Below are positions 17,008 to 44,104 of a DNA stretch of 64,000 bases, piece after piece. The notes beneath the pieces were generated by a model, which worked only from the letters and a program-made list of their open reading frames with translations, ran no database searches and was not told where the DNA came from. Where the stretch lies: the IMG/VR virus record IMGVR_UViG_3300045988_177034; one strand, 5' to 3'. This DNA comes from a virus. Every line of letters starts with the position of its first letter. Within the stretch, counting starts at the first letter, position 1. The position numbers were made by a program, and so were the translations under genes.

Positions 17008-17036
17008 ATTATACCACATAAATATAATGTGGTCAA
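17008..17036 (-). promoter_or_regulatory. family-2 conserved promoter: TTGACC - 17 nt ending TGTGG - TATAAT (extended -10, core TGTGGTATAATATA)
   Basis: minus-strand read gtaTTGACCacattatatttatgtggTATAATataaat; likely drives the operon 16960 to 11361 (three unknown genes, then secY, secG, secE, prolyl isomerase, sortase). Confidence 0.65.
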
Positions 17037-17051
17037 TACAAATTGCGAATA

Positions 17052-17079
17052 AAAAAATGCCCCGCCAAAGCAGGGCATG
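17052..17079 (-). terminator. intrinsic terminator (ATGCCCTGC-tttg-GCGGGGCAT plus T7)
   Basis: follows the stop of gene 17098..17751; canonical terminator-then-promoter order here. Confidence 0.65.
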
Positions 17080-17097
17080 TAAAATATCATAAGTGTC

Positions 17098-17751
17098 TTA
17101 TCGAATACCGTATCCCATATCTTGTCGTACAAGTTTTATTTCTGAAGTGCTTTTCAGACTATCGGGGAACATCTCTTTAGCGTAATCCTGATAGCGTTTC
17201 GTAACATACTTTACGCCGAGTTCTTCCGGTTTGATATCTGCTGCGGTCTTTCTGATACGTTGATTCGATGCGCGAGAAGAACATTTCTTGCATAAGCAAA
17301 GCGCGACATTAGAAATGCCTTCATTCCCGCAGACGGCGCATTTTGCATGCGTCTTATCTCTATCCCATTCCTTTATTTCTTTTCCGTTTTCCGGGTCTAT
17401 TACAAGGCGGTTGCGCTTACAGCGGCGCACATAGAACACGCTTTGGCAGCAGGCAACGCATAAGCCTAAATCTTTGCGGTAGTGAGAAGAGAGACCATCT
17501 GTGACTTCACCGCACAAAAGGCATTTATTTTGAGAAACAATATTCTTGTACTTATTAGCCTTGTTCTCTAATAGCTTTTTTATGATTTCACCGGTCTTAT
17601 CTGGTTCAGGAGGATACGCATCCCATCCGTTTACAGGAAAAAAGCTGGAAAAGTCGTTCCATTCATCATCAGAAAACGAACAGCCGACAGGTTTGAGTAT
17701 CTTAGGGAGTTTATTGGACCATACTTTTTCTGCATTAGACTTCTTCGGCAT
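17098..17751 (-). CDS. Cys-rich hypothetical protein (217 aa; start MPKKSNAEK)
   Basis: ORF 17098..17808 trimmed to the ATG at 17751 with a GGAGG ribosome-binding site; several CxxC pairs. Confidence 0.6.
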   Translation of the reverse strand: MPKKSNAEKVWSNKLPKILKPVGCSFSDDEWNDFSSFFPVNGWDAYPPEPDKTGEIIKKLLENKANKYKNIVSQNKCLLCGEVTDGLSSHYRKDLGLCVACCQSVFYVRRCKRNRLVIDPENGKEIKEWDRDKTHAKCAVCGNEGISNVALCLCKKCSSRASNQRIRKTAADIKPEELGVKYVTKRYQDYAKEMFPDSLKSTSEIKLVRQDMGYGIR

Positions 17752-17782
17752 ACAGGCTCCTCCTTTGGAAGGAGTGACAGAA

Positions 17783-19207
17783 TCAATATTCTGCCACGAT
17801 GTTATCATCGGGTTTCTTCTTTATCAAAGAGTCCCCGAATCGATTTACATGTTCTTTCGGCGGTTCAATGACCTCGATATCGGTATCCTCCACCTTTTCG
17901 ATTTCGTCAGAGGAATCGTCATCTTTTTCGTTCTGAACCTTATCCGATGGATTGGTGATTTGTGCATCCTCTTTTGCAACATCTGAAAGCAAATCAAATG
18001 TCAACTGAGAATTTGAGGACGCTGGTTTCTTTTCTCTTTTCTTGGTTGTTTGGCGTTTTTTGGAAGTTCTTTTTGACTTTACAGGTTCATTGGAACCACC
18101 ATCGCTTGTTTTTGCACTTGCTGTATTTGAATCAGCAACCGCATCCGCTGAAGCCTTATCCTTGTTTGTTTCTGTGACGGGTTCCTGAACCTTTTTGTTT
18201 TTTGATAAATCATCTTTGTCGGATTGTTTTGATTCCAAAGCAGAAGACTCTTGTGCGTTTGAGCCTTGCTCTTCTTGCACTACAGATTCTTCCTTTACTG
18301 GAACCTTGGCAGTTCCCTTCTGCAAAAGGCCATCGATTGCTACAACGGCCTCAGACTTCTTTTCTTCGGACTCCGCCTTCTGTACTGCACGGCGAATCGC
18401 CTCGGTTTTTTCTTTCTTTTCTTTTTCTGCTGATGCGGTATTTTCGTTTTCCTTTATCTCAGCAGGCACATTCATGTCAGATTTCGAATTCCACCACTTT
18501 TCAATAGTAGTAATCGTTCTTTCTACTAATATTATACCACAAAATTTGTGGTTTGACAACTTGCGGCTCGGTACAAAGCATACAATGCCGCACAGAGAAA
18601 CAACCAGTAAAACAATAGCAAGTCCTGCATCAAAAATAAAACAGATAAACGACACCGGAATCAGCAGCTCGCAGATACCGCGCATGATAAATACTGTTTT
18701 ATCTCCTTGGTCTTTTCGGTTTTGCATAAAACTGTCTCTCCCCTTCTGCGGGTGATAAGACAAACCACTTGACAAGCCGTTTGTTGCCCAATCACAAGGT
18801 ATCTCGTAAGTCTTTTCTCCTAAGCTGTCTGTGTACTGAATTACAGCAATATCAAAATACTCACCATTCTTCTGTGATGCCAAGAATGCACGTAAGAATT
18901 CATTTCCAACAGACCGCGCAGGAACAATAATCGTTTCGATGCCGTCAGAATCTTTTGCGGCGATATCTACTACATAGGTATCATCTTCACCGCGCCATAC
19001 GTTCTGCACAATACCGCGCACCAATATACCGCGCTTATGAACACGCCTTCCCATAAAAGTAAAGGAGTTTTCAGAATACCACGTGTTTACCATGCAATAC
19101 GCAGCAATAATAAGCAATGTAAGGTACTTAACATTTATGGTGATAATGCTTAAAGAAAAAATATACGGAACGAGCATCAGCAAGACGAATGATACAAAGC
19201 TATTCAC
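17783..19207 (-). CDS. membrane protein (474 aa): transmembrane helix - soluble domain - transmembrane helix, then a long K/E/S-rich tail
   Basis: ORF track; hydrophobic segments at residues 5-40 and 175-215; contains an in-frame copy of the family-2 promoter at 18531-18559. Confidence 0.6.
18531..18559 (-). promoter_or_regulatory. family-2 promoter copy embedded inside the coding sequence of ORF 17783..19207
   Basis: minus-strand read gTTGTCAaaccacaaattttgtggTATAATattagt with the full TGTGGTATAATAT core; an in-frame ATG (MNVPAEIK) follows at 18475. Confidence 0.4.
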
Positions 19208-19887
19208 TTTGAATCACCGCCTTCGCCAAATCCGTCCAAAAAGACAAGATTTTCTTTTGTGTGTTTCTTTTTTTGTTCAATAACTTCTTTTTCAGCTTCT
19301 TGTTTGACTTTATCGTACGCTTCCAACGGACTCATAGAAGGTACTGATTTCTGCGTATCAGCAGGGACGATAGTATCATCGTTTTTGACGGCTGTCGTTA
19401 CACGACTGCAGGTTACGAGATTTCTGTCATTAAACGCAGTTACGCCATCCTCATTTGATTTAAAAATAAAGTCATACATAGCACCAACGAAGAAAGAGTT
19501 TTTAACGTTTTTCTTTGATTCGTTGACGCTGAGGAAAAAATCGTATTTTCCGTTTTTGTCGATAAACTCTCCATCCTCATTGACAGGGATGATTCGATAG
19601 GTTGAAATCTGCTGGCGAATCATATTTTTGCTGGACTCATCGGATACAACAATTCCCTTAACAGTCTTATACCGTTCATTTTTTTCATCATTATGAATCT
19701 CATAAATTTGAAAAATAAAATAAGCGGCGCACATCAAGCCGATGAGAAGAATCTTCCACTCCTGCATTACAACAACACCGAAAATAGAAGCAATCAAGAA
19801 CAGAATAGCGATAAGCCCATTCTTCACATACATAGATGTGATAAGAGATTTGCAATCCGGATGATAAATCTTAGACATTTTATTCAC
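19204..19887 (-). CDS. membrane protein (227 aa; 2 N-terminal transmembrane helices plus a soluble domain)
   Basis: ORF track; overlaps neighbours by 4-8 nt, suggesting coupling. Confidence 0.6.
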
Positions 19888-20866
19888 CGCCTTCTACGTT
19901 AGAATCTTTATCTGCGCTGTTTGTCGTACTGGCAGACTGTAAAATGCTTGCACCCTGCTCATTCAAAACATCCTCGATTGTCTTGTCGCGTAGTTTGATG
20001 CTGGACAAAACGACATCGTAAGACTCCCCAGACGAAGTAGTTACCCGTGCGATATATTGAATGGTCGTATCCCCCGCAAGCAATGCGCCATCTATTGTTT
20101 GCTTCTGACGATTTCCATCCTTATCTTCGGTCTCAACCACATACATATCCTGTGACGCTTTTTGTGCAGATACAGAAGACGTCATAACAATATCTCCGGC
20201 CTTCATATCAGAGGTCGCGAACTTGTTTACGATGGAACCTGTTCTATCCACAAAGAACACGGGGGTATCCTGCTGCATCTTCCCGTCGCCATCTACAAAA
20301 TGCGAACCGCATAAGGATTCGTATTCGTTGACACTCAAAGTCTTATAGCTGAGTTCTGAATCCTCAATGGTATCCCCGGAAGGAATATCCACATTTACGA
20401 CAGCAACTTTATATTCTCCGGTAAGCTGTCCACTGATTTGGACCCAGTTTGTGTATACGAAGAAGCCAATAGCGATGGCGACAACGGCAACAATGAACAT
20501 TGCGATACCGATATTACGCTTGTTATTGTTTTTGATGATTTGTGCCTGTTCTAGGATTTCCTTACTGGCATGCTTAGTATCTTTAAGCGTCTGGTTTGCT
20601 TCATCCAGTGTATCGCTTGTCTTTGTAAGCACTTCGTAAGCTTTGGTCTCTCTATGGCCGACATTCACATTCAGCCCTTTTGCGCCATTGTTATTGGCAG
20701 ACTTTGCGTTGTTGTATTCGGCGCGAAGCGTTTCCACAACGGAATCGTCAAGCGTCATCTGTTCCCCGTTGGGCAGAATTACCGTACCATCATCATAGAC
20801 ATCGAAAACACGTTCCTTGCCTTCATACATGGCGCGTACCTGACCGATAACATAATGTTCGTTCAT
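19880..20866 (-). CDS. single-pass membrane protein (328 aa; start MNEHYVIG)
   Basis: ORF 19880..20941 trimmed to the ATG at 20866 (AAGGGGTG ribosome-binding site), which removes the overlap with gene 20881..21375. Confidence 0.55.
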   Translation of the reverse strand: MNEHYVIGQVRAMYEGKERVFDVYDDGTVILPNGEQMTLDDSVVETLRAEYNNAKSANNNGAKGLNVNVGHRETKAYEVLTKTSDTLDEANQTLKDTKHASKEILEQAQIIKNNNKRNIGIAMFIVAVVAIAIGFFVYTNWVQISGQLTGEYKVAVVNVDIPSGDTIEDSELSYKTLSVNEYESLCGSHFVDGDGKMQQDTPVFFVDRTGSIVNKFATSDMKAGDIVMTSSVSAQKASQDMYVVETEDKDGNRQKQTIDGALLAGDTTIQYIARVTTSSGESYDVVLSSIKLRDKTIEDVLNEQGASILQSASTTNSADKDSNVEGGE

Positions 20867-20880
20867 GTTTATCACACCCC

Positions 20881-21375
20881 TTATCTCTTGTACTTTTCGA
20901 ACACCTTGCGCGAAGGAGCTCTCGGGCCGCACATCTTGCACTTTTTACTCTGCTCAACATAATCAATGAGCATCTGACGTTCCCATTCAAGGTATTCGTC
21001 CATATTTTTTTCTTTCCATGAATCGAATTTGCCGTATGAAACACCGAGATAACTGGCGAATATGCTGACAGCATTCAGCATATAATCATTCGGGATTACA
21101 ACCCTTTTCCCGTCCAGATTGTAAGCATGTCCCGTAGTGATTTTGTTTCTTGTCTGTCCTATCTTCATTCGCCTCGTTTCTGTGTTCTTCTTTACCTGAG
21201 TTTCTCTTCTTAGGGTACTGCAGGACTTACAATATTGAGTGTTTTTGGCGGTAGAATAAAAAATCCTGCCGCATTCCTTGCATTTGCGTTCGTACGTTAT
21301 GGTTTTAGGAGTTGTACTTTGTTTTTGGGTTTCTGTATGGTTGCTGTTTTCAGAAGTACAATGATTCCGAGCCAT
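20881..21375 (-). CDS. zinc-ribbon-containing hypothetical protein (164 aa)
   Basis: CKECGRIF...CKSC and CKMCG motifs. Confidence 0.55.
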   Translation of the reverse strand: MARNHCTSENSNHTETQKQSTTPKTITYERKCKECGRIFYSTAKNTQYCKSCSTLRRETQVKKNTETRRMKIGQTRNKITTGHAYNLDGKRVVIPNDYMLNAVSIFASYLGVSYGKFDSWKEKNMDEYLEWERQMLIDYVEQSKKCKMCGPRAPSRKVFEKYKR

Positions 21376-21391
21376 AATCTGTACCTCTTAT

Positions 21392-22453
21392 TTAAACGCG
21401 AGCGTCAATCAGGCAATTCAGCAGCCCGTTCGCGTCACAGCCAAACAATAAGCATCCGAACACACCAATGGCATGCCCTTTTCTGGTAGAGAATGTTCCT
21501 GCCGTAACACCAAGATGCCCGGCAATCTGCTCATCTGTCCAGTTGTACTTTTTCCCCTCAATCATTGCAAGGATAACGTCATAATAACGTTGACCAAGCG
21601 GAAACTGTTTCATGATTTCGACAGCCCCTCGTATGAGTTTCACATACTCCACAATGAGATAGGCATCGCTTCTGTTTTTATCAGAAACTTTGATTTTACT
21701 CAAATCTTCGTACGAAGAAGACCCAAGCAGTTTCATGGCGGGGTCCTTTGACCGTGAGGCACGATACAGAATACGCGTGTATTCCGTAAGAAGCAGCGGA
21801 ACATTATGATAAAGGCTTGCTTCTTCTACCCCGTCCACATCACTGCTTGTCATCAGGATTTTATAATATTCCTTGATAACACTACCTGCTGTATTGTAAA
21901 CGGATTCAATGCACCGCTCGCAATACTTCATGATTTTGATGCGTCCATTCTTCGGAAGAACAGCGGGATTCAAAAAGCAATCAAACACCTCCCGCATGCT
22001 GGAACAATAATCGACTTCGTACAAGAGTTCTAACCGCGACTCCTCAATGGCGTCAAGAAGCATCTGACAACTTTCGAAGTATTCTTTGCGTTTCCTGAAA
22101 TGCAAAGACTCTTCCTCAATGTTCGGAGCCAGCCAGCTCTGAATACGGCGCAGACGGGAAATGGCTTCGACATCGCACATCTCATCGTCGTGAACGTTTT
22201 CACAGTTCTGCATCATGACATCAAGGTCTTGTGCCTGCATCATCCATTTGAGTGCCGGATACAATATCATCAGAACAGCCGCTTCTTTCAGTTCCGGCCT
22301 CTCTTCCACAACACGGTTTACGCACTTTGTCAGCACATAAGAATTGGGAATGTCTCCGCCAAAACTTCTACGCAGAACAATGTTGTCCTGCATAATAGCA
22401 TCGAGCAATGCGTAAAGCTGCTGCTCTTGGGCTTTATTCAATGCTTCGGACAA
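21392..22453 (-). CDS. putative transcription regulator with a sigma-70 region-4-like C-terminal helix-turn-helix (353 aa; TTG start)
   Basis: C-terminal segment NWTDEQIAGHLGVTAGTFSTRKGHAI resembles the sigma-70 region-4 helix-turn-helix; GGAGGGAAGG ribosome-binding site before TTG 22453. Confidence 0.5.
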   Translation of the reverse strand: MSEALNKAQEQQLYALLDAIMQDNIVLRRSFGGDIPNSYVLTKCVNRVVEERPELKEAAVLMILYPALKWMMQAQDLDVMMQNCENVHDDEMCDVEAISRLRRIQSWLAPNIEEESLHFRKRKEYFESCQMLLDAIEESRLELLYEVDYCSSMREVFDCFLNPAVLPKNGRIKIMKYCERCIESVYNTAGSVIKEYYKILMTSSDVDGVEEASLYHNVPLLLTEYTRILYRASRSKDPAMKLLGSSSYEDLSKIKVSDKNRSDAYLIVEYVKLIRGAVEIMKQFPLGQRYYDVILAMIEGKKYNWTDEQIAGHLGVTAGTFSTRKGHAIGVFGCLLFGCDANGLLNCLIDARV

Positions 22454-22893
22454 TTTGCCTTCCCTCCTTTCGCAAGATTCGTTTCAATATGAATATGCGT
22501 GTTATCATGTACGGTTTCGGACAAAAGGCCACTATAATGGAACATAACCTTGTACTTCTTTGCGCTACAGGCATATTTGAGTCGAGCCCAAAGGTCTTTG
22601 TTATGACTGGGCTCAGTATCGCCGTCCTCTACGCCAAAAGAAGCACCAGTACGCGCAATCGCATTATCGCTGCTGAATACGACAATCTGAGACCCTGTCG
22701 GCAAACCGATGTTCTCGATAATGCGGCAGAGCTCTGCCAATTTCAGCCTTGTATAACCAATTGGAGTAGCCATAAAATAAGTATCCTTCTGTCTATCCGA
22801 CTTGGCGGAAGGATTTACGACAAAACTGTGAACGCACACCTCCCCATTCAGTTCCGGCGTTTTGACGATATCAAGATAAATAATAGCGGCCAT
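22438..22893 (-). CDS. hypothetical protein (151 aa), possibly RNase H-like fold
   Basis: ORF track; weak resemblance only. Confidence 0.5.
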   Translation of the reverse strand: MAAIIYLDIVKTPELNGEVCVHSFVVNPSAKSDRQKDTYFMATPIGYTRLKLAELCRIIENIGLPTGSQIVVFSSDNAIARTGASFGVEDGDTEPSHNKDLWARLKYACSAKKYKVMFHYSGLLSETVHDNTHIHIETNLAKGGKANCPKH

Positions 22894-22919
22894 AAATCGC
22901 TCCCCCTAATGTACAGTAA

Positions 22920-22948
22920 TTGACTTTTTCGCGTTTTTGTGGTATTAT
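22920..22948 (+). promoter_or_regulatory. family-2-type promoter on the plus strand: TTGACT - 17 nt ending TGTGG - TATTAT
   Basis: plus-strand read aaTTGACTttttcgcgtttttgtggTATTATataag, 100 nt upstream of the only sizeable plus-strand gene (23048). Confidence 0.55.
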
Positions 22949-23047
22949 ATAAGTGCAGTAAAGGTATAATTTATATTACCGGTTACAAAGATTGTTGTTT
23001 TCGGTAATTATATAAACTTGTCTGTTAAACCAAGCAGGAGGGAAATT

Positions 23048-23710
23048 ATGAGTAACAATATCAACAACAACCACGAATCGGTAGAGAATATCTTCAATGC
23101 TTTCTTGATGGGAGGCAAAATGAACACTGCTTCCAAGCAAGAACGGGCAAAAATTGTAGATACCTTTATGGAACAGGCAAAATCTTGCTTTGTTGACACG
23201 GAGAATACCGTGAAATATCTGAATGTTCTGATGGAACGGACGAGACTCCGTTATGGGTTTACCGCTGATGAATTTGCAGCAATGTTGGGATACAGCAGCA
23301 CTGCCGCTTACAACAAGACATTCATGCAACCAAATGCAAATTTTGGAACTGTAGTATTTCCTTATGTGGTTCAGTTTTGCTATCTGTTTGGCTATAATCT
23401 GTCAATTCCTGATTCCGTGTCTGCTCCGCAAACAGTGGCAGACCTATACTCTTTGGAACTGGCTTCTTTTCTGATTTCTCTTGGCCCCGATGCAATGGAT
23501 GATATTTCAAGAACATTGGTCGGTGCCGAATATCTTGACCCGAATTTAAGAAAAACAAGTTCTCAAATACTTTCAAAGGCAAAGAAATACTTCTATGGTA
23601 ATGATGGTGAAGCGTTACCCAATGAAGTTCAGTACCGCAACAGATTAGATAACGCTGAGAATAAGATTAAGCGTCTCGATAAAATAGAGAAAGCCAATCA
23701 CGACAAATGA
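23048..23710 (+). CDS. putative DNA-binding regulator (220 aa) with helix-turn-helix-like segment
   Basis: AGGAGGG ribosome-binding site 6 nt upstream of ATG 23048; GFTADEFAAMLGYSSTAAYNK resembles a helix-turn-helix; transcribed divergently from the main gene direction. Confidence 0.65.
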   Translation: MSNNINNNHESVENIFNAFLMGGKMNTASKQERAKIVDTFMEQAKSCFVDTENTVKYLNVLMERTRLRYGFTADEFAAMLGYSSTAAYNKTFMQPNANFGTVVFPYVVQFCYLFGYNLSIPDSVSAPQTVADLYSLELASFLISLGPDAMDDISRTLVGAEYLDPNLRKTSSQILSKAKKYFYGNDGEALPNEVQYRNRLDNAENKIKRLDKIEKANHDK

Positions 23711-24175
23711 TTAGCCGCCAAACATATCGGCTAACTGTAATGCAAGCATCGCTTCTTCTGAAATAGGAGGCGGTGCTTCTTCTGTTTTGGGAGTTGTGTT
23801 GATGGTTTGTGTGTCTGTAATGTTTTGGGGGGAGTCATTTGAAGCTGGCGCAGCTACCGCAATCCCGTTTTTCTGAATGCTGCTTGTCACTGCATCTACA
23901 ATCTGAGGAATACAGCTTCTGATTTCTTCTGCTATTGTGTTTTGCAGTTCCTCTTTTAAGACGGACTGCGCTTCTTGCATCTCATGTTGTTTTGTAGCCT
24001 TGTCGATTATAGCATTTACAACCGCATCAGTTTTTCCGCCGCGTTGCAAACTGTTCAGATAATCATATACAAGTACATGATTGTCTTTGCTTAAATCAAA
24101 AACAAGTGTGGTTCGTACCGTCGTGCCAACGGTTTCTTTTTCTGCTTCATTCTTTTTGGGACGTCCACGCGGCAT
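23711..24175 (-). CDS. ParR-like DNA-binding adaptor with AT-hook (PRGRPKK), 154 aa
   Basis: lies immediately downstream of the ParM-like gene; N-terminal AT-hook; partition-adaptor role inferred from position. Confidence 0.5.
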   Translation of the reverse strand: MPRGRPKKNEAEKETVGTTVRTTLVFDLSKDNHVLVYDYLNSLQRGGKTDAVVNAIIDKATKQHEMQEAQSVLKEELQNTIAEEIRSCIPQIVDAVTSSIQKNGIAVAAPASNDSPQNITDTQTINTTPKTEEAPPPISEEAMLALQLADMFGG

Positions 24176-24208
24176 TCAGTGCTCACCACGCTTTCAAAAA
24201 CGGTGCTC

Positions 24209-25333: not shown

Positions 25334-25362
25334 ATGATACCACACATGCAGTTGTCCAGCAA
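25334..25362 (-). promoter_or_regulatory. candidate parM promoter (family-2-like variant: TTGCTG - 17 nt ending TGTGTGG - TATCAT); ACAAC/GTTGT iterons downstream
   Basis: minus-strand read cgTTGCTGgacaactgcatgtgtggTATCATgataACAACagataGTTGTatattaGTTGTTc. Confidence 0.35.
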
Positions 25363-25406
25363 CGAACTTTTGTTCGCATAGACAACAAAAAAGAAAGGAG
25401 TTATTT

Positions 25407-25637
25407 ATGCCATCCACCTTTGATACCATGGTAGGAAAGCGAATCAAAAAGCAACGAATGGAAATCAATTACAGCCAAGAACAGTTGGCGGCAAGCACGA
25501 ATTGTTCCTATCGCTGCATCCAAAAATGGGAGTCAGGAAAGACGATGCCGCGAGCGCAGATGCTATGTAATTTAGCAAAAGCCTTACATGTTTCGTCTGA
25601 CTGGCTGCTGGGTATTTCCAATGACAGGAACGGTTAA
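25407..25637 (+). CDS. XRE-family helix-turn-helix transcriptional regulator (76 aa)
   Basis: AAGGAG ribosome-binding site; classic XRE helix-turn-helix (YSQEQLAASTNCSYRCIQKWESGKTMP); inverted repeat TTGTT-N8-AACAA at about 25370-25388 upstream, a likely operator. Confidence 0.85.
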   Translation: MPSTFDTMVGKRIKKQRMEINYSQEQLAASTNCSYRCIQKWESGKTMPRAQMLCNLAKALHVSSDWLLGISNDRNG

Positions 25638-30962: not shown

Positions 30963-31126
30963 TGAATCTGTCCCCCGTGTTTGCTTGTTGATTCGTATGA
31001 TATTGCCTATTTATTCTAATATAGTCAACATCAAAAAACTGCGTAAAAAATCGCACAGATGTTCTTCTGCGCTGTTCCACCATAGAAATATCACCGATAT
31101 TCCCTGTTCATCTTGAACATATCTAT

Positions 31127-31155
31127 ATTATACCACATTAAAACAAGGTAGTCAA
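31127..31155 (-). promoter_or_regulatory. family-2 conserved promoter: TTGACT - 17 nt - TATAAT
   Basis: minus-strand read gtcgTTGACTaccttgttttaatgtggTATAATatagat. Confidence 0.6.
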
Positions 31156-31159: not shown

Positions 31160-31200
31160 AAAAACCGTCGCAAATGTTAGTTTTCGCATTTACGACGGCT
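31160..31200 (-). terminator. intrinsic terminator after the flotillin gene (GCCGTCGTAAATGCG ... CATTTGCGACGG plus T5)
   Basis: 12-bp stem with 1 mismatch, followed by TTTTTG; terminator-then-promoter order. Confidence 0.6.
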
Positions 31201-33005: not shown

Positions 33006-33043
33006 AAATGGAATTCCCCCTGTCTTTCCAATCGATATATTAT

Positions 33044-33072
33044 ATTATACCACAAATAAGCAAACGAATCAA
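33044..33072 (-). promoter_or_regulatory. family-2 conserved promoter: TTGATT - 17 nt - TATAAT
   Basis: minus-strand read gaTTGATTcgtttgcttatttgtggTATAATataata. Confidence 0.55.
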
Positions 33073-33123
33073 TCAAAAAGACGAGCAAGATACTTCTCAC
33101 TCGCCTTCTGCTTTTTTGTGTTG

Positions 33124-34276: not shown

Positions 34277-34304
34277 ATTGTATCTACTTTGCAGCAAATA
34301 GCAA
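34277..34304 (-). promoter_or_regulatory. family-1-type promoter variant: TTGCTA - 16 nt (TTTGCTGCAAAGTAGA) - TACAAT
   Basis: same ATTGCTGCAAAGTAGA spacer core as the other family-1 copies. Confidence 0.5.
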
Positions 34305-34336: not shown

Positions 34337-34351
34337 CGTCCCCATCTTATT

Positions 34352-34903: not shown

Positions 34904-34925
34904 TCTTATTCCTCCTCTTTTTTAT

Positions 34926-34954
34926 ATTATACCACATTTTGTTTTAATGGTCAA
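34926..34954 (-). promoter_or_regulatory. family-2 conserved promoter: TTGACC - 17 nt - TATAAT
   Basis: minus-strand read agTTGACCattaaaacaaaatgtggTATAATataaaaaagAGGAGG. Confidence 0.6.
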
Positions 34955-34965
34955 CTTGTATAATA

Positions 34966-35001
34966 CAAAAAAGATAGCCACCCATTTCTGAGCGGCTATC
35001 T
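34966..35001 (-). terminator. intrinsic terminator (AGATAGCCGCTC-agaaatgggt-GGCTATCT plus T6) after the lipoprotein gene
   Basis: hairpin followed by TTTTTTG on the minus strand. Confidence 0.6.
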
Positions 35002-35811: not shown

Positions 35812-35878
35812 GAGTAACTTCTCCTTTTTCATGTGTGTTTGTTTGATGTGCATAAACAAGCTTCATGCACTATGCTTA

Positions 35879-35907
35879 TATTATACCACCAAAAACATAA
35901 ATAGTCA
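35879..35907 (-). promoter_or_regulatory. family-2 conserved promoter: TTGACT - 17 nt - TATAAT
   Basis: minus-strand read tgTTGACTatttatgtttttggtggTATAATataagc. Confidence 0.6.
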
Positions 35908-35987
35908 ACAAAGAATAGCGCCCCACAGATTTACCTGCGGAGCGCTATATGTTATCTCTTACGCGGAGTAGAGATTATTTCAGTTGG

Positions 35988-38900: not shown

Positions 38901-41900
38901 AGGAGTGATTTCGAAGGTGTTGTTTACGCGGGTGATGTTGAAGTTGACATCGTCGCCCTCGATAATCATCGGGTGCTTGCCGACATCCTCACCAGCATCG
39001 GTGCCAGCGTCAGGACGAACAACCTTCAGGTTTGCAAGGTCACCTGCATCTTCGCTTACATAGTAAGCGCCGTCGCCAGTTGCAGTCCAAGTCAGTTCGG
39101 GGTCAGCCTCGCCGTAGACCTTCTTCTGGCCTTCGTCAACAACCACGATTACATCGCGCTTATCGACATGCAGAGAACCATCAACAAAGACGATGGGGTC
39201 ATAGTTCTTTGCGCCCTTGTTTTCCAGACCGCTCATGGTGATGACATAATCGCCAGCAGCAGGACGAGCAGGAATCTCGGACAGAGAACCGTCAGCATTC
39301 TTGATGTTGTAGACAACCGAGCCAGTGAATGCGGAAGCAACGGTGTCATTGTTCTTCAGGCCAGTAACGGTGTAGCTGAACGTGGGAACGGTGCCGCCAT
39401 AAATCATGGAGTAACCGCCAGCCACGGTAAAGGTGACCTTAACGGGCTTGATGGTCAGAGTAGCAACTTCCATAGCTTCGGGCTCGGTGGTGGAAGAACC
39501 AACGTCGACGGAAGTGCCGGAGCCAGTCACGATGGTGATGGTGTAGTTACCGTACTTGTTGTACAGAGTAGAGCTGATGGGGTATTCACCGACATCCTCA
39601 CCGGCTTTGCGAGTAACAGAGCCGCTCAGAGCACCAGTAGTCAGTTCCAGCGTATTCTTCTTCAGACCATCGTTGGAAATGTTGCCGGAAATCTCGCTGT
39701 AAGAGAATGCGGGGTCTGCATCGCCGTAATCCTTCTCGTAGTTGGAGAAAGTCAGGGTGATGGGACGAGGAGTGATGGTGAGGGTAGAATCAATCACCGT
39801 CAGGTCGTAGTTGGCAGGCTGTGCGTAGATAGCTTTCAGAGCATAAGTGCCAACGCTTGCGGAAGCAGAAGTTGCACCGGAAGTCAGGGTAATGCCCTTA
39901 AGAATCTTTTCGGCTTCTGCTGCCTGAACATCAGTAGTAGTCAGCAGACCAGTGCCGCCCTTGATGTAATCCTTCACGTTCATAGAAGTGAGGGTCTCAC
40001 CATAGGTCTTTTCGGTTTCGAGCAGGTTGATAACGGCAGTACGCTTATTGATGGTGAAGCGAACATCATTGGTGAAGCTGATACGATAGTTCTTTGCCAT
40101 CGTCTGCTCATAGATGTTACCGCTGTAAATCGGATAAGTGCCAGCGTTCTCGCCTGCTTCACGGCTCAGACGAGCCTGTGCGAAGTCGGCCTTGGGTTCT
40201 GCGAAGCTGGTGGTGTTGTAGTCGAAGATGACATAAGTATCATTGACTGCAAAGCTGGGGTCAGTCTCGCCGTAAGTCTTGGACAGGCCATAGCGAGGAG
40301 TGATGGTCAGGGGCATCTGATGAACAATCAGCATGTTCTTGCCATCGGGCTCAGACAGCTTAACGCTGTTTGCAGGCTGGTTATCCAGACGGAAGGTCAG
40401 GTTGTAAGAACCTGCATCGTACAGACCAGAAGCGTTCGCAGTAGCCTCAACGGCGATACGAACAACGCCCAGAGAAACATCCTTGCCGTCCATCTTGATG
40501 TTGACGGTTTCGCCATCGTGGTAAATCTGAGTGCCATCGGAGGTGTTCACATTGACGGAAACTTCCTTGGCGATGGTATCGGGCTTCTTCTCGCCGTAGG
40601 TAGTCTGCAGAGCGTTGAAGGTGACAGAGACATCAGCCTCGGTGACTTGGAACGTGGCCTGCGGAGCAATCGTTACGATGTAGTTGGGGTTCTCATCATA
40701 GGAGATGGTAGCCTCATAGTTGCCAACAACCGTGGTGGGGTCTTCCCACTTGGTCAGGTCGATGTGGATGTTCAGCGGGCTGCCCTGCGGGTCAACCACA
40801 TTGATAGCCTGAGAACCGGTCTCGTCATACAGCGCATAGCTGGGGGTGTTCTTACCGGCAACGCCGTACTTACGGACGCTGTTGGTAGTACCCTTGATGG
40901 TGACAGGCAGTGCATTGATAGTCAGTGTACCGCTTGTACCATCGCTGTAAGTACCGGTATAAACGATGTTGTAGTTGGGGTTGGTGTAACCGGAAACAAC
41001 GATAGGATAGGTACCGACACCAGTCAGCTTACCAACGGTATTATCAACGCCATACTTGATGGTGACAGTGCCGCCAAGAGAAGCGACGGTATCATGGATG
41101 CCGATTTCATCGTTGCTTGCAAAGTTCTTGTATTCCAGTGCGCCGGTAATGTCGGCATCGCTGGGATTTTCAGAACCATACAGACGCTCACGGTTCGGAA
41201 CGGTGATAGTCAGAGTACGCTTGGTGATAGTGTACTTATCGGGAGCATTGAAGGTGATGTCGTAGTTCTTGGCGATTTCAGCAGTCTGGAACTGTGCATC
41301 GCTGTAAGCGTAAGAACCAACGGTCTCGCCGACCTCACGGGTCACAACGCAGCCAGCAAAGTCGGAACCAACACGGCCGCCCTTGCCATTGACGGGGTCA
41401 AGAGTAAAGGCAACGCCGCCCTTGGCATCACTGTCGCCGTAAACCTTCGTTTGACCACCCATCACATTGATGGCGATAGGACGCTTGGTGACGGTCAGCT
41501 TGCTGTTGACAAAACGAACCAGATAGTTGTCGTAACGGTCGTAGTTCTTGCCATCGGCATTGGGGTCCCAGTCAGAAGACCAACGCTCCTGAGAAGCACC
41601 CTGCACAGATGCGCTGACGGTGTATTCGCCAACATTGGCAGTTGTAGGAGTGCCGCTGTTGCCAGCCGCATCCACCATGGTAAAGCCAAGCTTATCCTCG
41701 GTCAAACCGATGCTTGCCTGTGTATCGTTCAGCTTGAAACCTTCGATGGATTTAATCTTGCCGGAACGAGCAGCGCCATACATTGCGGACAGGTCATCGA
41801 GAGTGACAGTCAGCATTGCAGGATGGATGATGTACTTGCTGTTGATGACCTTAACGTCATAGTAAGCAGTGCATGCAGGGGGAACTTCGACAGTCATCGG

Positions 41901-43931
41901 ATATTCGCCAACATTCTTATTGTCGATATCCTGACGCTGTGTTGTCAGAACCATGCTGACCAGCTTGTTCACACCGTCATCAGCGGTGATGTCGGAACCG
42001 GCGACAATACGCTTATCGGAGGCCACTGCCTGAGCAGCACCGTTATAAGCAACAGCGTCGAAGGTAATGGTGGAAGACTTGCCCTTTTCAGCCTCACCAT
42101 AGATGGCATCAATCTGGTCGTTGGTGATGGTTACGTTACGCTTGGTAATTTCAAACGTTGCGGTAGCAAGGTTGATGTTATAACCATTGATAGGCGCATT
42201 CGTCTGGATATTGCCGATTGTAACAGTGTAGCCACCGGGAGCAGAGGTAATGCTGGGCAGAACAACGGTGGGTTCACCGCTCAGACCAAGCATCTCTTTC
42301 AGAGCAACTGCGTTGGACTTGTGCTCGTTGTTGGTCTTATACTCGAAATTCGTCTTATCGGTATCAGACCAGCCGGTAATCACGAAGTCAACCTGAGGAT
42401 TCTGCTGACCATACTGACGAGTGGCTTTGCTGCCGGTCGTCTGTACGCCATCATTGCCCTTGAAGACAAATACAGGAGTCAGGGTCAGAGTCTTTTCAGA
42501 AACGACAACATACACATCGCCGGTATTGGGCTGAATGTCGATGTTGTAGTTCGTGTTGCTCTTCGCGGAGGAACCTAAGATGATTTTGTAAGAACCGGTA
42601 GTGTCCTTATCAAAGTTCTCTGTGGTCAGAACATCCGCAGGAAGCAGGTCGCCGTCAACCAGACCACCATTGGTGTCCATGACTGTGTAGTTAATCTGGC
42701 TGATGGTATTGCCCTTCGTAACATAAGTAGTATGAGGGACAATGTAAATCTGACGCTTGTTGATAGTCACGCCCGTGTCATTGCGGATATTCTTAGAAGA
42801 ATCCAAGTTGGAACCGTCAATGATGGTGTAATTCAGACCATTCACAGTAACGCTTGTGGCACCTGTATCAACATAAGTCGGATAAGTACCGGCATTGCAA
42901 TGAATGTCTGTGGGATTCTGGCCGTCGCCGTCAGCCGGAGCATACATGATGAAGCTCAGACCGTCGATAGCTGCCTGAATATCCTTTTCGACTTCCTGAG
43001 AAGTACGGGAATCAGCAGTGCTGTATTCGATGGTCAGACCCTTAGACTTGAAGGAGTCACCGTAGGTGTAGGTAACAGTCTGAGGCAGAATGCGAATAAC
43101 ATTCTCCTGACCGCTAATCTTGGTATACTGAATACCAGTGCCTGCGGCAATCTGCTTACCAGTCTCAGCAGCGGTAATTGCCTGATAGTCCCCGATGACA
43201 GTCGTAGAACCGCCGCCATCAAACGCGCTGGCACCGCTGTTGTCTACGGGGTTTTCCTGACGGTCGCAAACCTGCAGATACAGGTCAGACATATCAAGGT
43301 ATGCATTCATGACGGGCTCGGCGACCTGCTCATCCTCGCTCAGAGAATAATACATGTCCTCAATGGGTTCCCAGTCATAAACTGCATCCAGTTCCTCAGT
43401 GCGACGCGTGACCATCGCATCAAGAACCGCATTTTCCTTGTCAGCCTGCCATGCCTTGCTTGCAAGACCGAAGTTGTTTGCAGCAGTCAGAATTTCATCT
43501 TTACGGCTTACAAGGGCGTTAGCCGCATCGATAAATGCCTGTGCTGCTTCACTGATGCTGCCAGTGGTAGAAGCTTCGCTGGAAGTGCTGGTGCTTGCAC
43601 CAGTATCAGAGGCAGCACTGTTTGCGTAGGCAGTGGTCGTTTCAGACCCCGCCTGACTTGTAGCCTCAGAAGAAACATCGCTCGTCACAGAAGTGTCGCT
43701 GGACGCGGAACTTGCTGTGTCGGTAACATCGCTTTTCGGCGCGGGAGTAGTAGCGGAAGAGTCGGAGTTTGTTGTCGTAGTGCTGAGTGCATCAGTTTCC
43801 TTCGGAGCTTCTTCACTCTGCGTGATTCCACTCGCGCTCTCTACTGCATAAGCAGTGACAGGAGCAAACTGAGACAGGCACATTGCTACGGCGACAATCG
43901 CACTCAAAAACCGCTTACGAGGTTTCTGCAT
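35988..43931 (-). CDS. giant cell-surface adhesin 1 (2647 aa): signal peptide, many MBG (YGD/E-type) repeats, Pro/Thr linker, C-terminal transmembrane anchor
   Basis: AGGAGGG ribosome-binding site 8 nt upstream of ATG 43931; signal peptide ending AYA; dozens of K(V/T)YG(D/E)xDP...T motifs; C-terminal VVNYKTGVGFG plus hydrophobic helix plus KKKK tail. Confidence 0.9.
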   Translation of the reverse strand: MQKPRKRFLSAIVAVAMCLSQFAPVTAYAVESASGITQSEEAPKETDALSTTTTNSDSSATTPAPKSDVTDTASSASSDTSVTSDVSSEATSQAGSETTTAYANSAASDTGASTSTSSEASTTGSISEAAQAFIDAANALVSRKDEILTAANNFGLASKAWQADKENAVLDAMVTRRTEELDAVYDWEPIEDMYYSLSEDEQVAEPVMNAYLDMSDLYLQVCDRQENPVDNSGASAFDGGGSTTVIGDYQAITAAETGKQIAAGTGIQYTKISGQENVIRILPQTVTYTYGDSFKSKGLTIEYSTADSRTSQEVEKDIQAAIDGLSFIMYAPADGDGQNPTDIHCNAGTYPTYVDTGATSVTVNGLNYTIIDGSNLDSSKNIRNDTGVTINKRQIYIVPHTTYVTKGNTISQINYTVMDTNGGLVDGDLLPADVLTTENFDKDTTGSYKIILGSSAKSNTNYNIDIQPNTGDVYVVVSEKTLTLTPVFVFKGNDGVQTTGSKATRQYGQQNPQVDFVITGWSDTDKTNFEYKTNNEHKSNAVALKEMLGLSGEPTVVLPSITSAPGGYTVTIGNIQTNAPINGYNINLATATFEITKRNVTITNDQIDAIYGEAEKGKSSTITFDAVAYNGAAQAVASDKRIVAGSDITADDGVNKLVSMVLTTQRQDIDNKNVGEYPMTVEVPPACTAYYDVKVINSKYIIHPAMLTVTLDDLSAMYGAARSGKIKSIEGFKLNDTQASIGLTEDKLGFTMVDAAGNSGTPTTANVGEYTVSASVQGASQERWSSDWDPNADGKNYDRYDNYLVRFVNSKLTVTKRPIAINVMGGQTKVYGDSDAKGGVAFTLDPVNGKGGRVGSDFAGCVVTREVGETVGSYAYSDAQFQTAEIAKNYDITFNAPDKYTITKRTLTITVPNRERLYGSENPSDADITGALEYKNFASNDEIGIHDTVASLGGTVTIKYGVDNTVGKLTGVGTYPIVVSGYTNPNYNIVYTGTYSDGTSGTLTINALPVTIKGTTNSVRKYGVAGKNTPSYALYDETGSQAINVVDPQGSPLNIHIDLTKWEDPTTVVGNYEATISYDENPNYIVTIAPQATFQVTEADVSVTFNALQTTYGEKKPDTIAKEVSVNVNTSDGTQIYHDGETVNIKMDGKDVSLGVVRIAVEATANASGLYDAGSYNLTFRLDNQPANSVKLSEPDGKNMLIVHQMPLTITPRYGLSKTYGETDPSFAVNDTYVIFDYNTTSFAEPKADFAQARLSREAGENAGTYPIYSGNIYEQTMAKNYRISFTNDVRFTINKRTAVINLLETEKTYGETLTSMNVKDYIKGGTGLLTTTDVQAAEAEKILKGITLTSGATSASASVGTYALKAIYAQPANYDLTVIDSTLTITPRPITLTFSNYEKDYGDADPAFSYSEISGNISNDGLKKNTLELTTGALSGSVTRKAGEDVGEYPISSTLYNKYGNYTITIVTGSGTSVDVGSSTTEPEAMEVATLTIKPVKVTFTVAGGYSMIYGGTVPTFSYTVTGLKNNDTVASAFTGSVVYNIKNADGSLSEIPARPAAGDYVITMSGLENKGAKNYDPIVFVDGSLHVDKRDVIVVVDEGQKKVYGEADPELTWTATGDGAYYVSEDAGDLANLKVVRPDAGTDAGEDVGKHPMIIEGDDVNFNITRVNNTFEITPATLNVTLAAQSKIYGDENPVLSGDDLIFDGFVVKPVKGNTTPDDAGVLGIANLTFNFTDAEGAPATVASHAGTGKVVPANVENAAANNYTFVYAPVDFVIDKRPITVTAKPQTSIYGDDVAVEDWSDYGTVNVLEYTGDTAKAALVNGDILEGTNLCLVTSASHVGGYDIVPSFSGLAHRVGQASYQDYLVTAMNGTYTVTQRPLTWTIGTVGSVYGNKMAELSNTLTYTGDADKKTIVNGDDLKAIISITQKDVENAVAEEISMKSADGAASLVAESVPESVKNYGAYDMVGSYDNDDYLITIVNGVYTIGERLVEVTVTEPKDIVYGDTTNPDFTVNAVATNGDGTHGAAVKPDSLGLKMALVYTPFENDKTTDNAQTAPLTADAKATLTPDIASGDDGVESDSQFKTENVKNAGTYTYTVTSDYDAAVEQNYAVTINVVDADKNQADGQFVIARKDLTVTLDPNPVVKLYGTKTEIPEIKTSGYAFDETAETVKLPSFELIVASSIDGIFGNVGLTKDAFKYVGGAYDNYNYLPTTGDLEVQRLHLADVEPATIVGTVADEKTGKPVEVTKKTTDDLSGLYFNSKVEVIAPKGYAIGTSDSLTDAEWAEKMVISANSEKVTSTYYLIDLKTGAITEMGTITTSVDTEAPVVASAFAADKVDSTNKTDLLNEKFVKFESTINVFITGEETGKAPEKEDDKKDDTDKKEDSDKKDETESGTEEKVPSESEKTETTDDKTEATTLRIAHGKPALFTTGDETGDENGNDVVATPDENGGKDDTEDPDFVPVVKVKDSVPAISALDGEYNSGVAKIQYYKVNGSAIAKSADGDYTFDETKFETVNVTNIDKDNGYVTFKLSPDWTGYIVTRTVDKAGNYGDVRVASVKLENPPEESRPTPTPVVKNEPAPTPAPVVVNYKTGVGFGADIIVPVIVVVALIGVGAFVIVKKKKGDSEEKAAEKTEDKTEEKKQ

Positions 43932-44075
43932 GTTAGTTGCCCTCCTAATAATGTGAGTATTCTGTGGTTTTACCACAGCCGGATTTATATACACCCTTAC
44001 CTACTCCCTAGTGTGCAGCCTCGATTGTAGATAAGAAAGTATATCAAAACACAAGCAATCAAATTGCATATTTAC

Positions 44076-44104
44076 AATATGCCACAAAAAGACAGAAAAG
44101 TCAA
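44076..44104 (-). promoter_or_regulatory. weak family-2-like promoter: TTGACT - 17 nt ending TGTGG - CATATT
   Basis: conserved -35 and spacer, degenerate -10. Confidence 0.3.

What the first reader, a model, noticed from the sequence alone, without database searches (positions are those of the whole stretch)
17008..44104. Second conserved promoter family with an invariant extended -10 block TGTGGTATAATATA, segregated from family 1
Seven minus-strand copies (17008-17036, 18531-18559, 31127-31155, 33044-33072, 34926-34954, 35879-35907, and a weak one at 44076-44104) plus one plus-strand copy (22920-22948) share TTGAC(C/T), a spacer of exactly 17 nt ending TGTGG, and TATAAT followed by ATA. A degenerate variant at 25334-25362 precedes parM. 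Family 2 governs the 17-36 kb half (sec operon, flotillin, surface proteins, the divergent regulator). Family 1 governs 1-11 kb and the junctions at 34.3 and 44.2 kb. Two sharply distinct, internally near-identical promoter classes suggest two temporal or regulatory programmes, comparable to early and late phage promoter classes. The sigma region-4-like protein at 21392-22453 is a candidate regulator that could tell them apart.
Basis: seen in the sequence. Interest (0 to 1): 0.6.

Follow-up and report, generated by a model that had tools for sequence, protein, structure and literature searches.

The report
Housekeeping-type promoters on a gut megaplasmid
The repeated TGTGGTATAATATA blocks are real and are almost certainly strong, ordinary housekeeping-sigma promoters of a large human-gut "Hodor" megaplasmid, each usually sitting just after a terminator, so this is useful annotation and not a new kind of control element.

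Summary
Eight sites carry TTGAC-like -35, a 17-nt spacer ending TGTGG, and TATAAT (0.01 expected by chance). The window is very likely part of a "Hodor" megaplasmid of the human gut. Every conserved base lies where the primary sigma factor contacts DNA (-35, TRTG/-16 extended -10, -10). The spacers and the transcribed regions beyond about +2 are not conserved. In three lineages whose proteins are only 20-80% identical, the same blocks survive at the same gene junctions while all flanking DNA has diverged. One copy lies inside a coding sequence, encoded as K-L-S…C-G-I-I. Five of the eight follow a terminator hairpin directly. The exact 32-nt pattern is not specific to this element: it occurs in over 120 unrelated viral contigs, and a 16-spacer version occurs in over 120 genomes, mostly Clostridia. 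What is lineage-specific is the flavour: a pyrimidine at the sixth -35 base, G at -16 and -13, and an ATAARTAT start region. Family 1 is different: it is element-specific, has a conserved spacer, and carries a conserved leader plus terminator. The two families interleave gene by gene across the plasmid. The likely contrast is default-on against gated units, not two sigma classes. The 353-aa protein does have a sigma-region-4-like C-terminal domain, but nothing links it to either family.

The parts
17005..17036 (-). Family-2 promoter: TTGACC, 17-nt spacer ending TGTGG, TATAAT, then ATA. First promoter upstream of the 171-aa gene, the zf_Tbcl gene and the SecY/SecE block.
   Evidence: Downstream genes.
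17057..17078 (-). Terminator hairpin plus U-run, 20 nt upstream of the -35 of the 17005 promoter.
   Evidence: (-16.5 kcal/mol, z -3.4).
18528..18559 (-). Family-2 promoter (TTGTCA-17-TGTGGTATAATATT) embedded in the 474-aa ORF, at codons K-L-S…K-F-C-G-I-I.
   Evidence: both hexamers are kept in L015 (with TGTGG) and in L012 (without TG). L009 has lost them and has a promoter after the gene instead.
22920..22951 (+). Family-2 promoter (TTGACT-17-TGTGGTATTATATA) for the divergent 220-aa gene that starts at 23049.
   Evidence: The orthologous site is invariant in all four lineages.
25334..25362 (-). Degenerate variant (TTGCTG-17-TATCAT with TGTGG) upstream of the ParM-like gene. A CGAAC/GTTCG inverted repeat lies just upstream of it.
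   Evidence: read directly; ParM domains. L009 has TTGAAA-17-TGTGGTATTAT at the same junction.
31124..31155 (-). Family-2 promoter (TTGACT-17-TGTGGTATAATATA) for the operon from the 239-aa gene to the Dam gene.
   Evidence: Orthologous alignment.
31163..31200 (-). Terminator hairpin plus U-run directly upstream of the 31124 promoter.
   Evidence: -19.2 kcal/mol, z -4.7.
33041..33072 (-). Family-2 promoter (TTGATT-17-TGTGGTATAATATA) upstream of the flotillin/SPFH gene.
33076..33109 (-). Terminator hairpin plus U-run directly upstream of the 33041 promoter.
   Evidence: -18.6 kcal/mol, z -3.1.
34923..34954 (-). Family-2 promoter (TTGACC-17-TGTGGTATAATATA) with a short leader to the 183-aa membrane protein gene.
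34972..35001 (-). Terminator hairpin plus U-run upstream of the 34923 promoter.
   Evidence: (-22.1 kcal/mol, z -4.95).
35877..35908 (-). Family-2 promoter (TTGACT-17-GGTGGTATAATATA) for the 235-aa putative lipoprotein gene.
35915..35948 (-). Terminator hairpin upstream of the 35877 promoter.
   Evidence: (-26.4 kcal/mol, z -4.8).
44073..44104 (-). Weak family-2 copy (TTGACT-17-CATATT with TGTGG) upstream of the 2668-aa MBG-domain surface protein gene. It lies in tandem behind a family-1 unit.
44249..44276 (-). Context: family-1 promoter (TTGACCGTTGCTGCAAAGTAAGTAATAT). Other family-1 copies are at 1351-1378, 5557-5584, 8309-8336, 10267-10294, 11326-11353 and 34277-34304.
21392..22453 (-). It has a novel helical N-terminal part and a sigma-region-4-like C-terminal helix-turn-helix domain.
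   Evidence: Negative results.
25407..25637 (+). 76-aa Xre-type HTH protein gene, divergent from the ParM-like gene. A candidate local repressor.
   Evidence: HTH_3/HTH_19/HTH_31 on the identical gene in L001-L008.

Best explanation
Family 2 is the set of strong promoters of this megaplasmid that need no extra factor. They are read by the host's primary sigma factor (sigma-A, the sigma-70 type).

The assignment of conserved bases to sigma contacts rests on established knowledge, not on a test here:
- TTGACy is the -35 element for sigma region 4.
- The exact 17-nt spacer sets the geometry.
- TGTG(G) is the Gram-positive '-16 region', also called the extended -10 (TRTG), for sigma region 3.
- TATAAT is the -10 element for sigma region 2.
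- The A/T-rich ATAARTAT covers the discriminator and the start site. Transcription should begin about 7 nt after TATAAT, probably at an A (inferred).

Most copies sit a few bases downstream of an intrinsic terminator. Each gene or short operon is therefore an insulated unit that restarts transcription at full strength (inferred). The family carries no operator-like conserved sequence and no conserved leader, so its default state is probably 'on' (inferred).

The contrast with family 1 is not a different sigma. Family 1 carries a conserved spacer motif (TGCTGCAAAGT), a conserved leader and a terminator in front of the genes, so it looks like the gated class (inferred).
For: - The motif is real and non-random. 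All eight copies have a 17-nt spacer, and these are the top-scoring sigma-70-type matches in the region.
- Information content is confined to the -35, positions -17 to -7, and about 8 nt downstream. It is near zero in the spacer and in the leader.
- Flanks of the eight copies are unrelated, with 47% mean column identity, so this is not a repeated DNA element.
- In three diverged lineages (L009, L012, L015) synteny is kept and proteins are 21-80% identical. Across all four lineages, window included, the intergenic alignments keep only TTGAC and TGGTATAATA invariant at the same junctions.
- The copy inside a coding sequence is retained in 3 of 4 lineages. Where it is lost, a promoter appears after the gene.
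- Five of the eight copies follow a hairpin plus U-run with z from -3.1 to -4.95. In the wider sample, 26 of 38 non-allelic sites have a T-run within 30 nt upstream.
- In unseeded Clostridia-rich genome DNA, the commonest 5-mers in front of TATAAT are TRTGn, which is the known motif.
- The exact 32-nt pattern occurs in at least 120 stretches of IMG/VR. With a 16-nt spacer it occurs in at least 120 viral stretches and at least 120 genome stretches. Only 3 of 357 such loci are related to this element.
- About 38 non-allelic sites of the family occur elsewhere in the same plasmid lineage.
Against: - There are no transcription start or expression data. The host is unknown, so its own promoter consensus could not be examined.
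- Several fixed positions are not explained by the generic consensus. The sixth -35 base is T or C in 36 of 38 sites, against A in 89 of 122 generic sites (Fisher p = 2e-14).
- G at -16 and -13 is nearly universal here, although unrelated genomes use the TRTGn variants about equally.
- ATAARTAT is conserved in the close lineage but not in L012 or L015.
- The Hodor preprint reports the giant gene and its three downstream neighbours as co-transcribed (PMC12934698). The terminators between them must then leak, or the promoters there add little.
- The 44073 copy is weak.
Confidence: 0.8

Rival explanations
1. Family 2 is a plasmid-specific promoter class. Its fixed non-consensus positions (pyrimidine at the sixth -35 base, G at -16 and -13, ATAARTAT) would be read by a plasmid-encoded factor, for example a sigma-like or RNA-polymerase-binding protein such as the 353-aa sigma-4-domain protein. 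Families 1 and 2 would then be two separately recognised programmes.
For: - The lineage-specific invariants are statistically strong.
- A sigma-4-like domain protein family is encoded next to a family-2 promoter and is syntenic in all four lineages.
- Its distant relatives fall in DUF1492, a family of phage late-gene activators (PMC3753634).
Against: - All conserved positions are housekeeping-sigma contact positions, and there is no extra conserved box.
- The identical sequence is widespread in DNA unrelated to this element.
- A promoter with near-perfect -35, spacing, TG and -10 does not need an activator (established knowledge).
- No sigma region 2 was found in the 353-aa protein.
- Both families have sigma-A-like hexamers.
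Confidence: 0.08
2. The copies are similar because of recent duplication or gene conversion of a promoter cassette within the plasmid (concerted evolution), and not because each base is under selection.
For: - Near-identity runs from -17 to about +2, including positions that tolerate variation in other genomes.
- Other mobile elements show tight arrays of even longer identical promoter units, for example L273 with five copies.
Against: - Homology stops at the promoter edges, and the spacers are unrelated.
- The same blocks are kept at orthologous junctions in lineages with saturated intergenic divergence.
- T-to-C exchanges at the sixth -35 base preserve a pyrimidine.
- One copy is maintained inside a reading frame.
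Confidence: 0.07
3. The block is a protein operator or another non-promoter site (for example a partition or recombination site) that only resembles a promoter.
For: Two copies have CCACA…TGTGG palindromes across the spacer (17005 and 18528; output).
Against: - The palindrome is absent from the other copies and from the orthologues.
- Orientation always matches the downstream gene. Position is right after a terminator and 20-100 nt before a ribosome-binding site and start codon.
- Spacing to the -35 is fixed at 17 nt.
Confidence: 0.03

Closest known systems
Gram-positive sigma-A promoters with the '-16 region' / extended -10 (TRTGnTATAAT; described for Bacillus subtilis and other Gram-positives; recalled from my own knowledge of Helmann 1995 and Voskuil & Chambliss 1998, not read here)
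   Same: - -35 TTGACA-like hexamer, 17-nt spacer, T-R-T-G at -17 to -14, TATAAT, and an A/T-rich region downstream.
- Located upstream of genes and oriented with them.
- TRTGn is also the commonest context of TATAAT in the unseeded Clostridia-rich genome sample.
   Different: - The family here is fixed on one variant: G at -16 and G at -13.
- It avoids the consensus A at the sixth -35 base (36 of 38 sites are T or C).
- In the close lineage it keeps ATAARTAT after the -10.
Clusters of near-consensus host-sigma promoters on phages (early promoters of phi29, SPO1, T5, T7 A1-A3; recalled from my own knowledge). Examples seen here: IMG/VR contigs L273 (5 copies) and L299 (4 copies).
   Same: Many nearly identical promoters on one mobile element, very close to consensus and read by the host enzyme. 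L273 and L299 carry exactly TTGAC-N13-TGTGGTATAATATA.
   Different: Here the copies are not clustered in an early region. They are spread over a roughly 350-kb plasmid, usually one per gene or short operon and directly behind a terminator. One copy is inside a gene.
Plasmid-wide regulons with a repeated operator in many promoters (for example KorA/KorB of RK2, or the R388 network; recalled from my own knowledge)
   Same: This applies to family 1, not to family 2. Family 1 has an element-specific conserved motif between the -35 and -10, repeated in 50 or more units.
   Different: Family 2 has no such motif. Family 1 additionally has a conserved leader and a terminator, which those operator systems lack.
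Hodor conjugative megaplasmids of the human gut (bioRxiv 10.64898/2026.02.21.707213, PMC12934698)
   Same: - Contigs of 190-354 kb from human gut samples, and an IMG/VR 'viral' label.
- SecY/SecE/trigger-factor block, a giant protein over 6500 aa next to a roughly 2650-aa MBG-domain protein, ParM, and a degraded CRISPR-like repeat pair.
   Different: No direct sequence comparison with the published genomes was possible. The preprint's main text has no match for the search stems 'promoter', 'sigma' or 'regulat'.

Membership tests
Sigma-70/sigma-A housekeeping promoter with extended -10 (-16 TRTG) | -35 hexamer close to TTGACA | tested here: met
   4-5 of 6 matches in all eight copies (44073 read directly).
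Sigma-70/sigma-A housekeeping promoter with extended -10 (-16 TRTG) | Spacer of 17 ±1 nt between the hexamers | tested here: met
   17 nt in all eight copies.
Sigma-70/sigma-A housekeeping promoter with extended -10 (-16 TRTG) | TG at -15/-14, with T-R at -17/-16 | tested here: met
   TGTG in seven copies. Copy 35877 has GGTG, so it keeps the TG.
Sigma-70/sigma-A housekeeping promoter with extended -10 (-16 TRTG) | -10 hexamer TATAAT | tested here: met
   Exact in six copies. TATTAT in copy 22920 and CATATT in copy 44073.
Sigma-70/sigma-A housekeeping promoter with extended -10 (-16 TRTG) | Upstream of a gene and oriented with it; conserved at orthologous sites while flanks diverge | tested here: met
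   One copy is intragenic but still conserved.
Sigma-70/sigma-A housekeeping promoter with extended -10 (-16 TRTG) | Transcription starts about 7 nt downstream and depends on sigma-A holoenzyme | not testable with these tools
   No RNA data and no host are available.
Temporal promoter classes read by an element-encoded sigma or polymerase (phage early/late type) | A consensus that departs from the host housekeeping promoter | tested here: not met
   Family 2 is close to the consensus. Family 1 also has TTGCAA-16-TAyAAT.
Temporal promoter classes read by an element-encoded sigma or polymerase (phage early/late type) | The element encodes a sigma factor or an RNA polymerase | tested here: inconclusive
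   The 353-aa protein has only a sigma-4-like domain and no Pfam sigma match. Only 64 kb of about 350 kb, plus scattered loci, was examined.
Temporal promoter classes read by an element-encoded sigma or polymerase (phage early/late type) | The two gene sets are expressed at different times | not testable with these tools
   Needs time-resolved RNA data.
Operator-bearing plasmid regulon promoter | A conserved motif outside the RNA polymerase contact positions | tested here: not met
   The family-2 spacer and leader carry almost no information. Family 1 does meet this feature.
Repeated mobile DNA (MITE/REP-like) | Homology that extends beyond the core, terminal repeats, or arbitrary position | tested here: not met
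   Only the promoter columns are conserved. The repeat finder reports just the 37-42-nt core (families D15 and D18).

The most novel reading that the evidence does not exclude
The fixed non-consensus positions of family 2 (pyrimidine at the sixth -35 base, G at -16 and -13, ATAARTAT at the start) would be a recognition code of this plasmid lineage or of its still-unknown host. Together with family 1 (an element-specific promoter with a conserved leader and a terminator in 50 or more units), they would form a two-tier, plasmid-wide transcription plan. Family 2 units would be always on. Family 1 units would open only when an antiterminator or regulator acts, possibly one of the sigma-4-like proteins. 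In that case the promoter signature could also serve as a fingerprint to identify the unknown host, because genome hits to the block concentrate in Oscillospirales-type Clostridia.
Probability: 0.12. Interest if true: 0.55.

Novelty: new member of a known kind. Interest (0 to 1): 0.3.

Why it matters
Hodor megaplasmids were described only in 2026, are reported from thousands of human gut samples, and have no known host or transcription map.

What this analysis adds:
- It assigns about eight transcription units in this window, and about 38 promoter sites across the lineage.
- It shows that the surface and secretion genes sit behind strong, probably constitutive, host-type promoters that are insulated by terminators.
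- It qualifies the preprint's operon call for the giant gene and its neighbours.
- It narrows the search for real regulation to family 1.
- The near-consensus design fits an element that must be expressed in whichever Bacillota cell it enters. That last point is an inference.

Tried and rejected
- **Public record searches.** Megablast of 16-36 kb against PLSDB plasmids and INPHARED phages gave no match.
- **RNA genes.** Rfam at gathering thresholds and a tRNA scan of the window found nothing.
- **Host search.** A protein-pattern search of genome contigs with the 556-aa protein found no relatives, so the host could not be named.
- **My error.** The collection scans used TTGAC+N12, which is a 16-nt spacer, one N too few. 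I repeated the viral scan with the correct 17-nt spacer.
- **The 353-aa protein.** The first AlphaFold model, built from 4 sequences, was poor (pLDDT 63.7), and its Foldseek search was meaningless. HMM searches against PDB sequences gave nothing. Pfam found nothing on the protein, even at E up to 10.
- **Other checks.** The preprint's supplements are not held. A literature search for the string TGTGGTATAAT found only scattered single promoters. L142, a 344,860-bp genome contig, looked like a possible Hodor but shares no similarity with the Hodor DNA sampled here.
- **Rejected readings.** Repeat element. Operator: the palindrome is present in only 2 copies. Dam/GATC control: the block contains no GATC.


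Full report

Yes. TGTGGTATAATATA with up to one mismatch occurs seven times in the 64-kb window, against 0.00 expected from shuffles. The full pattern TTGACY-N12-TGTGGTATAATATA with up to three mismatches occurs eight times against 0.01 expected, at the coordinates given. A generic sigma-70 scan ranks these sites at the top of the 16.5-36.4 kb region, all with a 17-nt spacer and a TG before the -10.

- The 14-mer is exact in four copies, has one change in three, and is weak at 44073.
- Two copies lack TTGAC(C/T): TTGTCA at 18528 and TTGATT at 33041.
- The 18528 copy lies inside an ORF.
- The degenerate copy before the ParM-like gene is TTGCTG-17-TATCAT with TGTGG.

Aligning 160 nt around the eight copies shows that only the promoter columns are shared (47% mean column identity). 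This is therefore not a dispersed repeat.

**2. What is the surrounding element?**

The region is not in PLSDB or INPHARED. The window's Dam-like protein is encoded, with identical sequence, in thousands of assembly blocks. The longest contigs are 200-354 kb and come from human gut samples. IMG/VR holds 89-346 kb contigs with the same genes.

The gene content comprises the following:
- SecY, SecE and a trigger-factor-like FKBP protein.
- A ParM-like actin.
- A flotillin.
- A 2668-aa MBG-domain protein next to an ORF of more than 6500 aa.

This matches the 'Hodor' conjugative megaplasmids described in bioRxiv 10.64898/2026.02.21.707213. Their host is unknown but is presumed to be Bacillota. That preprint's main text has no match for the search stems 'promoter', 'sigma' or 'regulat'.

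**3. Anatomy of family 2**

All eight copies point at the next gene. Five of them (17005, 31124, 33041, 34923, 35877) begin 3-20 nt after a strong hairpin followed by a U-run (-16.5 to -26.4 kcal/mol, z -3.1 to -4.95). The intragenic copy, the divergent copy and the weak copy do not.

I sampled about 590 kb of Hodor-lineage DNA that was fetched through family-1 matches, so it is not seeded on family 2. It contains 46 distinct TGnTATAAT sites with a good -35, and 43 of these have G at -13. After collapsing allelic variants there are 38 sites. Their consensus is rTTGACy-N12-TGTGGTATAATATAARTAT. Information content is high only at the -35, at positions -17 to -7, and for about 8 nt after that. 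The spacer and the leader carry almost none. Twenty-six of the 38 sites have a T-run within 30 nt upstream.

**4. Comparative evidence that these sites function**

The 353-aa marker protein has relatives at 65%, 52% and 56% identity. Their contigs (L009, L012, L015) keep the gene order, and their proteins are 21-80% identical to those of the window. At the same gene junctions these lineages carry TTGAC(T/C)-N12-TGTGGTATAAT.

I aligned two orthologous intergenic regions across all four lineages. Only TTGAC and TGGTATAATA are invariant, and everything else has diverged. The trailing ATA is not conserved in L012 or L015, where it reads AAC, AGC or AAT.

The 18528 copy lies within the 474-aa membrane protein gene, at the boundary between its conserved N-terminal part and a disordered tail.
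- The -35 is encoded by K-L-S/T and the -10 block by C-G-I-I.
- L015 keeps TTGACC-17-TGTGGTATAAT there.
- L012 keeps TTGACT-17-TATAAT without the TG.
- L009 has lost both hexamers and instead has a family-2 promoter just after the gene.

This pattern is what selection for promoter function would produce.

**5. Is it specific to this element?**

No. The hits lie in many different contigs, mostly one per contig. Some other phage-like contigs carry arrays: L273 has five copies and L299 has four, both at 31-32% GC.

By my own mistake, searches used a 16-nt spacer. They still show at least 120 viral stretches and at least 120 genome stretches carrying TTGAC-N12-TGTGGTATAATATA. Of the 80 genome hits listed with titles, about 66 are Clostridia. 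Many are labelled Acutalibacteraceae, Ca. Fimenecus, Ruminococcus or Oscillospiraceae. Only 3 of the 357 loci from these three scans show any similarity to Hodor DNA.

In the genome loci, with the seeded sites excluded, the commonest 5-mers before TATAAT are TATGG, TATGC, TGTGA, TGTGT, TATGA, TGTGG, TGTGC and TATGT. This is the known Gram-positive '-16 region' motif TRTG, with no preference at -13. Family 2 therefore belongs to the ordinary housekeeping promoter type.

**6. What is special about the Hodor version?**

- It uses essentially one TRTGn variant: TGTGG in 29 of 38 sites, and G at -13 in 43 of 46.
- The sixth -35 base is T or C in 36 of 38 sites. Generic sites with the same downstream block have A in 89 of 122 (Fisher p = 2e-14).
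- The close lineage keeps ATAARTAT after the -10.

I cannot tell whether these features reflect the unknown host's polymerase, tuning of promoter strength or escape, or a plasmid factor. They are the only reason to keep a more novel reading open.

**7. Family 1, for contrast**

The family-1 core TTGC-N4-TGCTGCAAAGT-N3-TA occurs in 62 IMG/VR stretches. That list is complete. Nearly all hits lie in a handful of large contigs, including about 20 in the 345,980-bp Hodor contig. Family 1 is therefore element-specific.

Each unit has four parts:
- A sigma-A-like promoter (TTGCAA-16-TAyAmT) with a conserved spacer.
- A conserved start of the transcript (…A(A/T)AAATAAAA…).
- Often the sequence TTCAAAATCGA.
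- A terminator hairpin (ATACCGCyATCTC-N4-GAGrTGGCGGTAT plus a U-run) that ends 73-125 nt after the -10, ahead of the first gene.

I found 53-56 distinct units, and the hairpin shows compensatory changes. Terminator-like sites are enriched in 1-16.6 kb, with 32 found against 14.4 ± 3.8 expected. In loci seeded on family 1, the two families interleave. The median distance from a family-2 site to the nearest family-1 site is 1.8 kb, and 39 of 45 pairs are on the same strand. In the window they already alternate at 34.3 kb and lie in tandem at 44.2 kb.

The difference between the families is therefore not two polymerase specificities. Family 2 is a bare strong promoter. Family 1 is a promoter with an operator-like spacer and a leader terminator, which looks conditionally expressed. 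That last step is inference.

**8. The proposed regulator**

- The 353-aa protein has no Pfam match even at E = 10 and no PDB sequence match.
- An exhaustive profile search finds 123 cluster representatives. The most distant, at 166-198 aa, align to residues of about 200-345, and several match DUF1492. DUF1492 is one of four families of phage late-gene activators in Gram-positive bacteria (PMC3753634).
- With a 47-sequence alignment the AlphaFold model is confident (pLDDT 89.2).

No sigma region 2 was found, and nothing ties this protein to either promoter family. A 76-aa Xre-type HTH gene lies divergent from the ParM-like gene. A 93-aa protein has a weak Mor/sigma-4-like HTH.

**9. Verdict**

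The best explanation, at confidence about 0.8, is that family 2 consists of the megaplasmid's default strong promoters, read by the host primary sigma factor and arranged as terminator-promoter punctuation.

Two classes with probably different regulation do exist. They are not comparable to early and late classes, family 2 is not element-specific, and the segregation is local to the window.

Novelty: a new member of a known kind. Interest is modest at 0.3. Family 1 and the fixed non-consensus positions of family 2 are the parts worth further work.

Noticed in passing
window 1351-1378, 5557-5584, 8309-8336, 10267-10294, 11326-11353, 34277-34304, 44249-44276 (all minus strand), each with about 75-125 nt downstream: Family 1 is a conserved module, not only a promoter. 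It combines TTGC-N4-TGCTGCAAAGT-N3-TAyAmT, a conserved transcript start (…AAAAATAAAA…, often TTCAAAATCGA), and a terminator hairpin with a U-run that lies before the first gene. There are 53-56 distinct units in Hodor-lineage DNA, and the module is element-specific (62 IMG/VR stretches, nearly all in a few large contigs). It could be a leader attenuator or antitermination target, or a family of small RNAs. It has no Rfam match.
   Followed up: partly
window 9253-9286 and 9443-9476 (minus strand): Two copies of a CRISPR-repeat-like 34-mer (GTTGCAACCC-N4-GGGTTGCGTT-N-GATTGAAAT) lie 190 nt apart. The stretch between them contains a piece similar to the downstream gene 8605-9153. This may be the 'degraded type I-C array' mentioned in the Hodor preprint.
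   Followed up: no
window 6615-6752 and 7189-7326: A 138-nt direct repeat, 89% identical, duplicates the 3' end of one gene plus the following ribosome-binding region (family D20).
   Followed up: no
window 17783-19207 (minus strand), around 18528-18559: A promoter is kept inside a reading frame. The only residues conserved at the boundary between the membrane domain and the disordered tail (K-L-S/T … G-I-I) coincide with the -35 and -10 hexamers. This suggests that the DNA signal, not the protein, is what is conserved there. An in-frame ATG (MNVPA…) follows about 60 nt downstream.
   Followed up: partly
window 21392-22453 (minus strand); relatives P0006-P0127: The 353-aa protein belongs to an uncharacterised family of about 120 clusters at 50% identity. 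It has a confident all-helical fold, a sigma-region-4-like C-terminal domain, and a distant link to DUF1492 phage late activators.
   Followed up: partly
L142, L153, L163, L173, L184 (genome-contig loci): Several Ruminococcus- and Oscillospiraceae-labelled MAGs, plus L142 from an unclassified MAG ('uncultured bacterium'), share a longer conserved promoter, cTTGACAttyt…TGTGGTATAATATAAATAKAAAAAGGGT. It probably sits in front of the same conserved gene or RNA. More generally, genome hits to the block concentrate in Oscillospirales-type Clostridia, which may hint at the host range of this element.
   Followed up: no
L273 (IMG/VR contig 3300024270_000653, 14,456 bp, 32% GC), locus positions 350-2961: Five near-identical units of about 60 nt (…AAAAAA…TTGACAAAT-N10-TGTGGTATAATATATACAG…) lie within 2.6 kb. 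This is a phage-style array of the same promoter in an unrelated low-GC element.
   Followed up: no
window 22952-23017 (plus strand): Downstream of the divergent promoter there is a second GGTATAAT 24 nt further on and an inverted repeat ATTACCG…CGGTAAT in the leader. The unusual TATTAT -10 is shared with the orthologous site in L009.
   Followed up: no
window 1-16600: Terminator-like hairpins are about twice as frequent as in shuffled sequence (32 against 14.4 ± 3.8). This is largely because of the family-1 leaders.
   Followed up: partly
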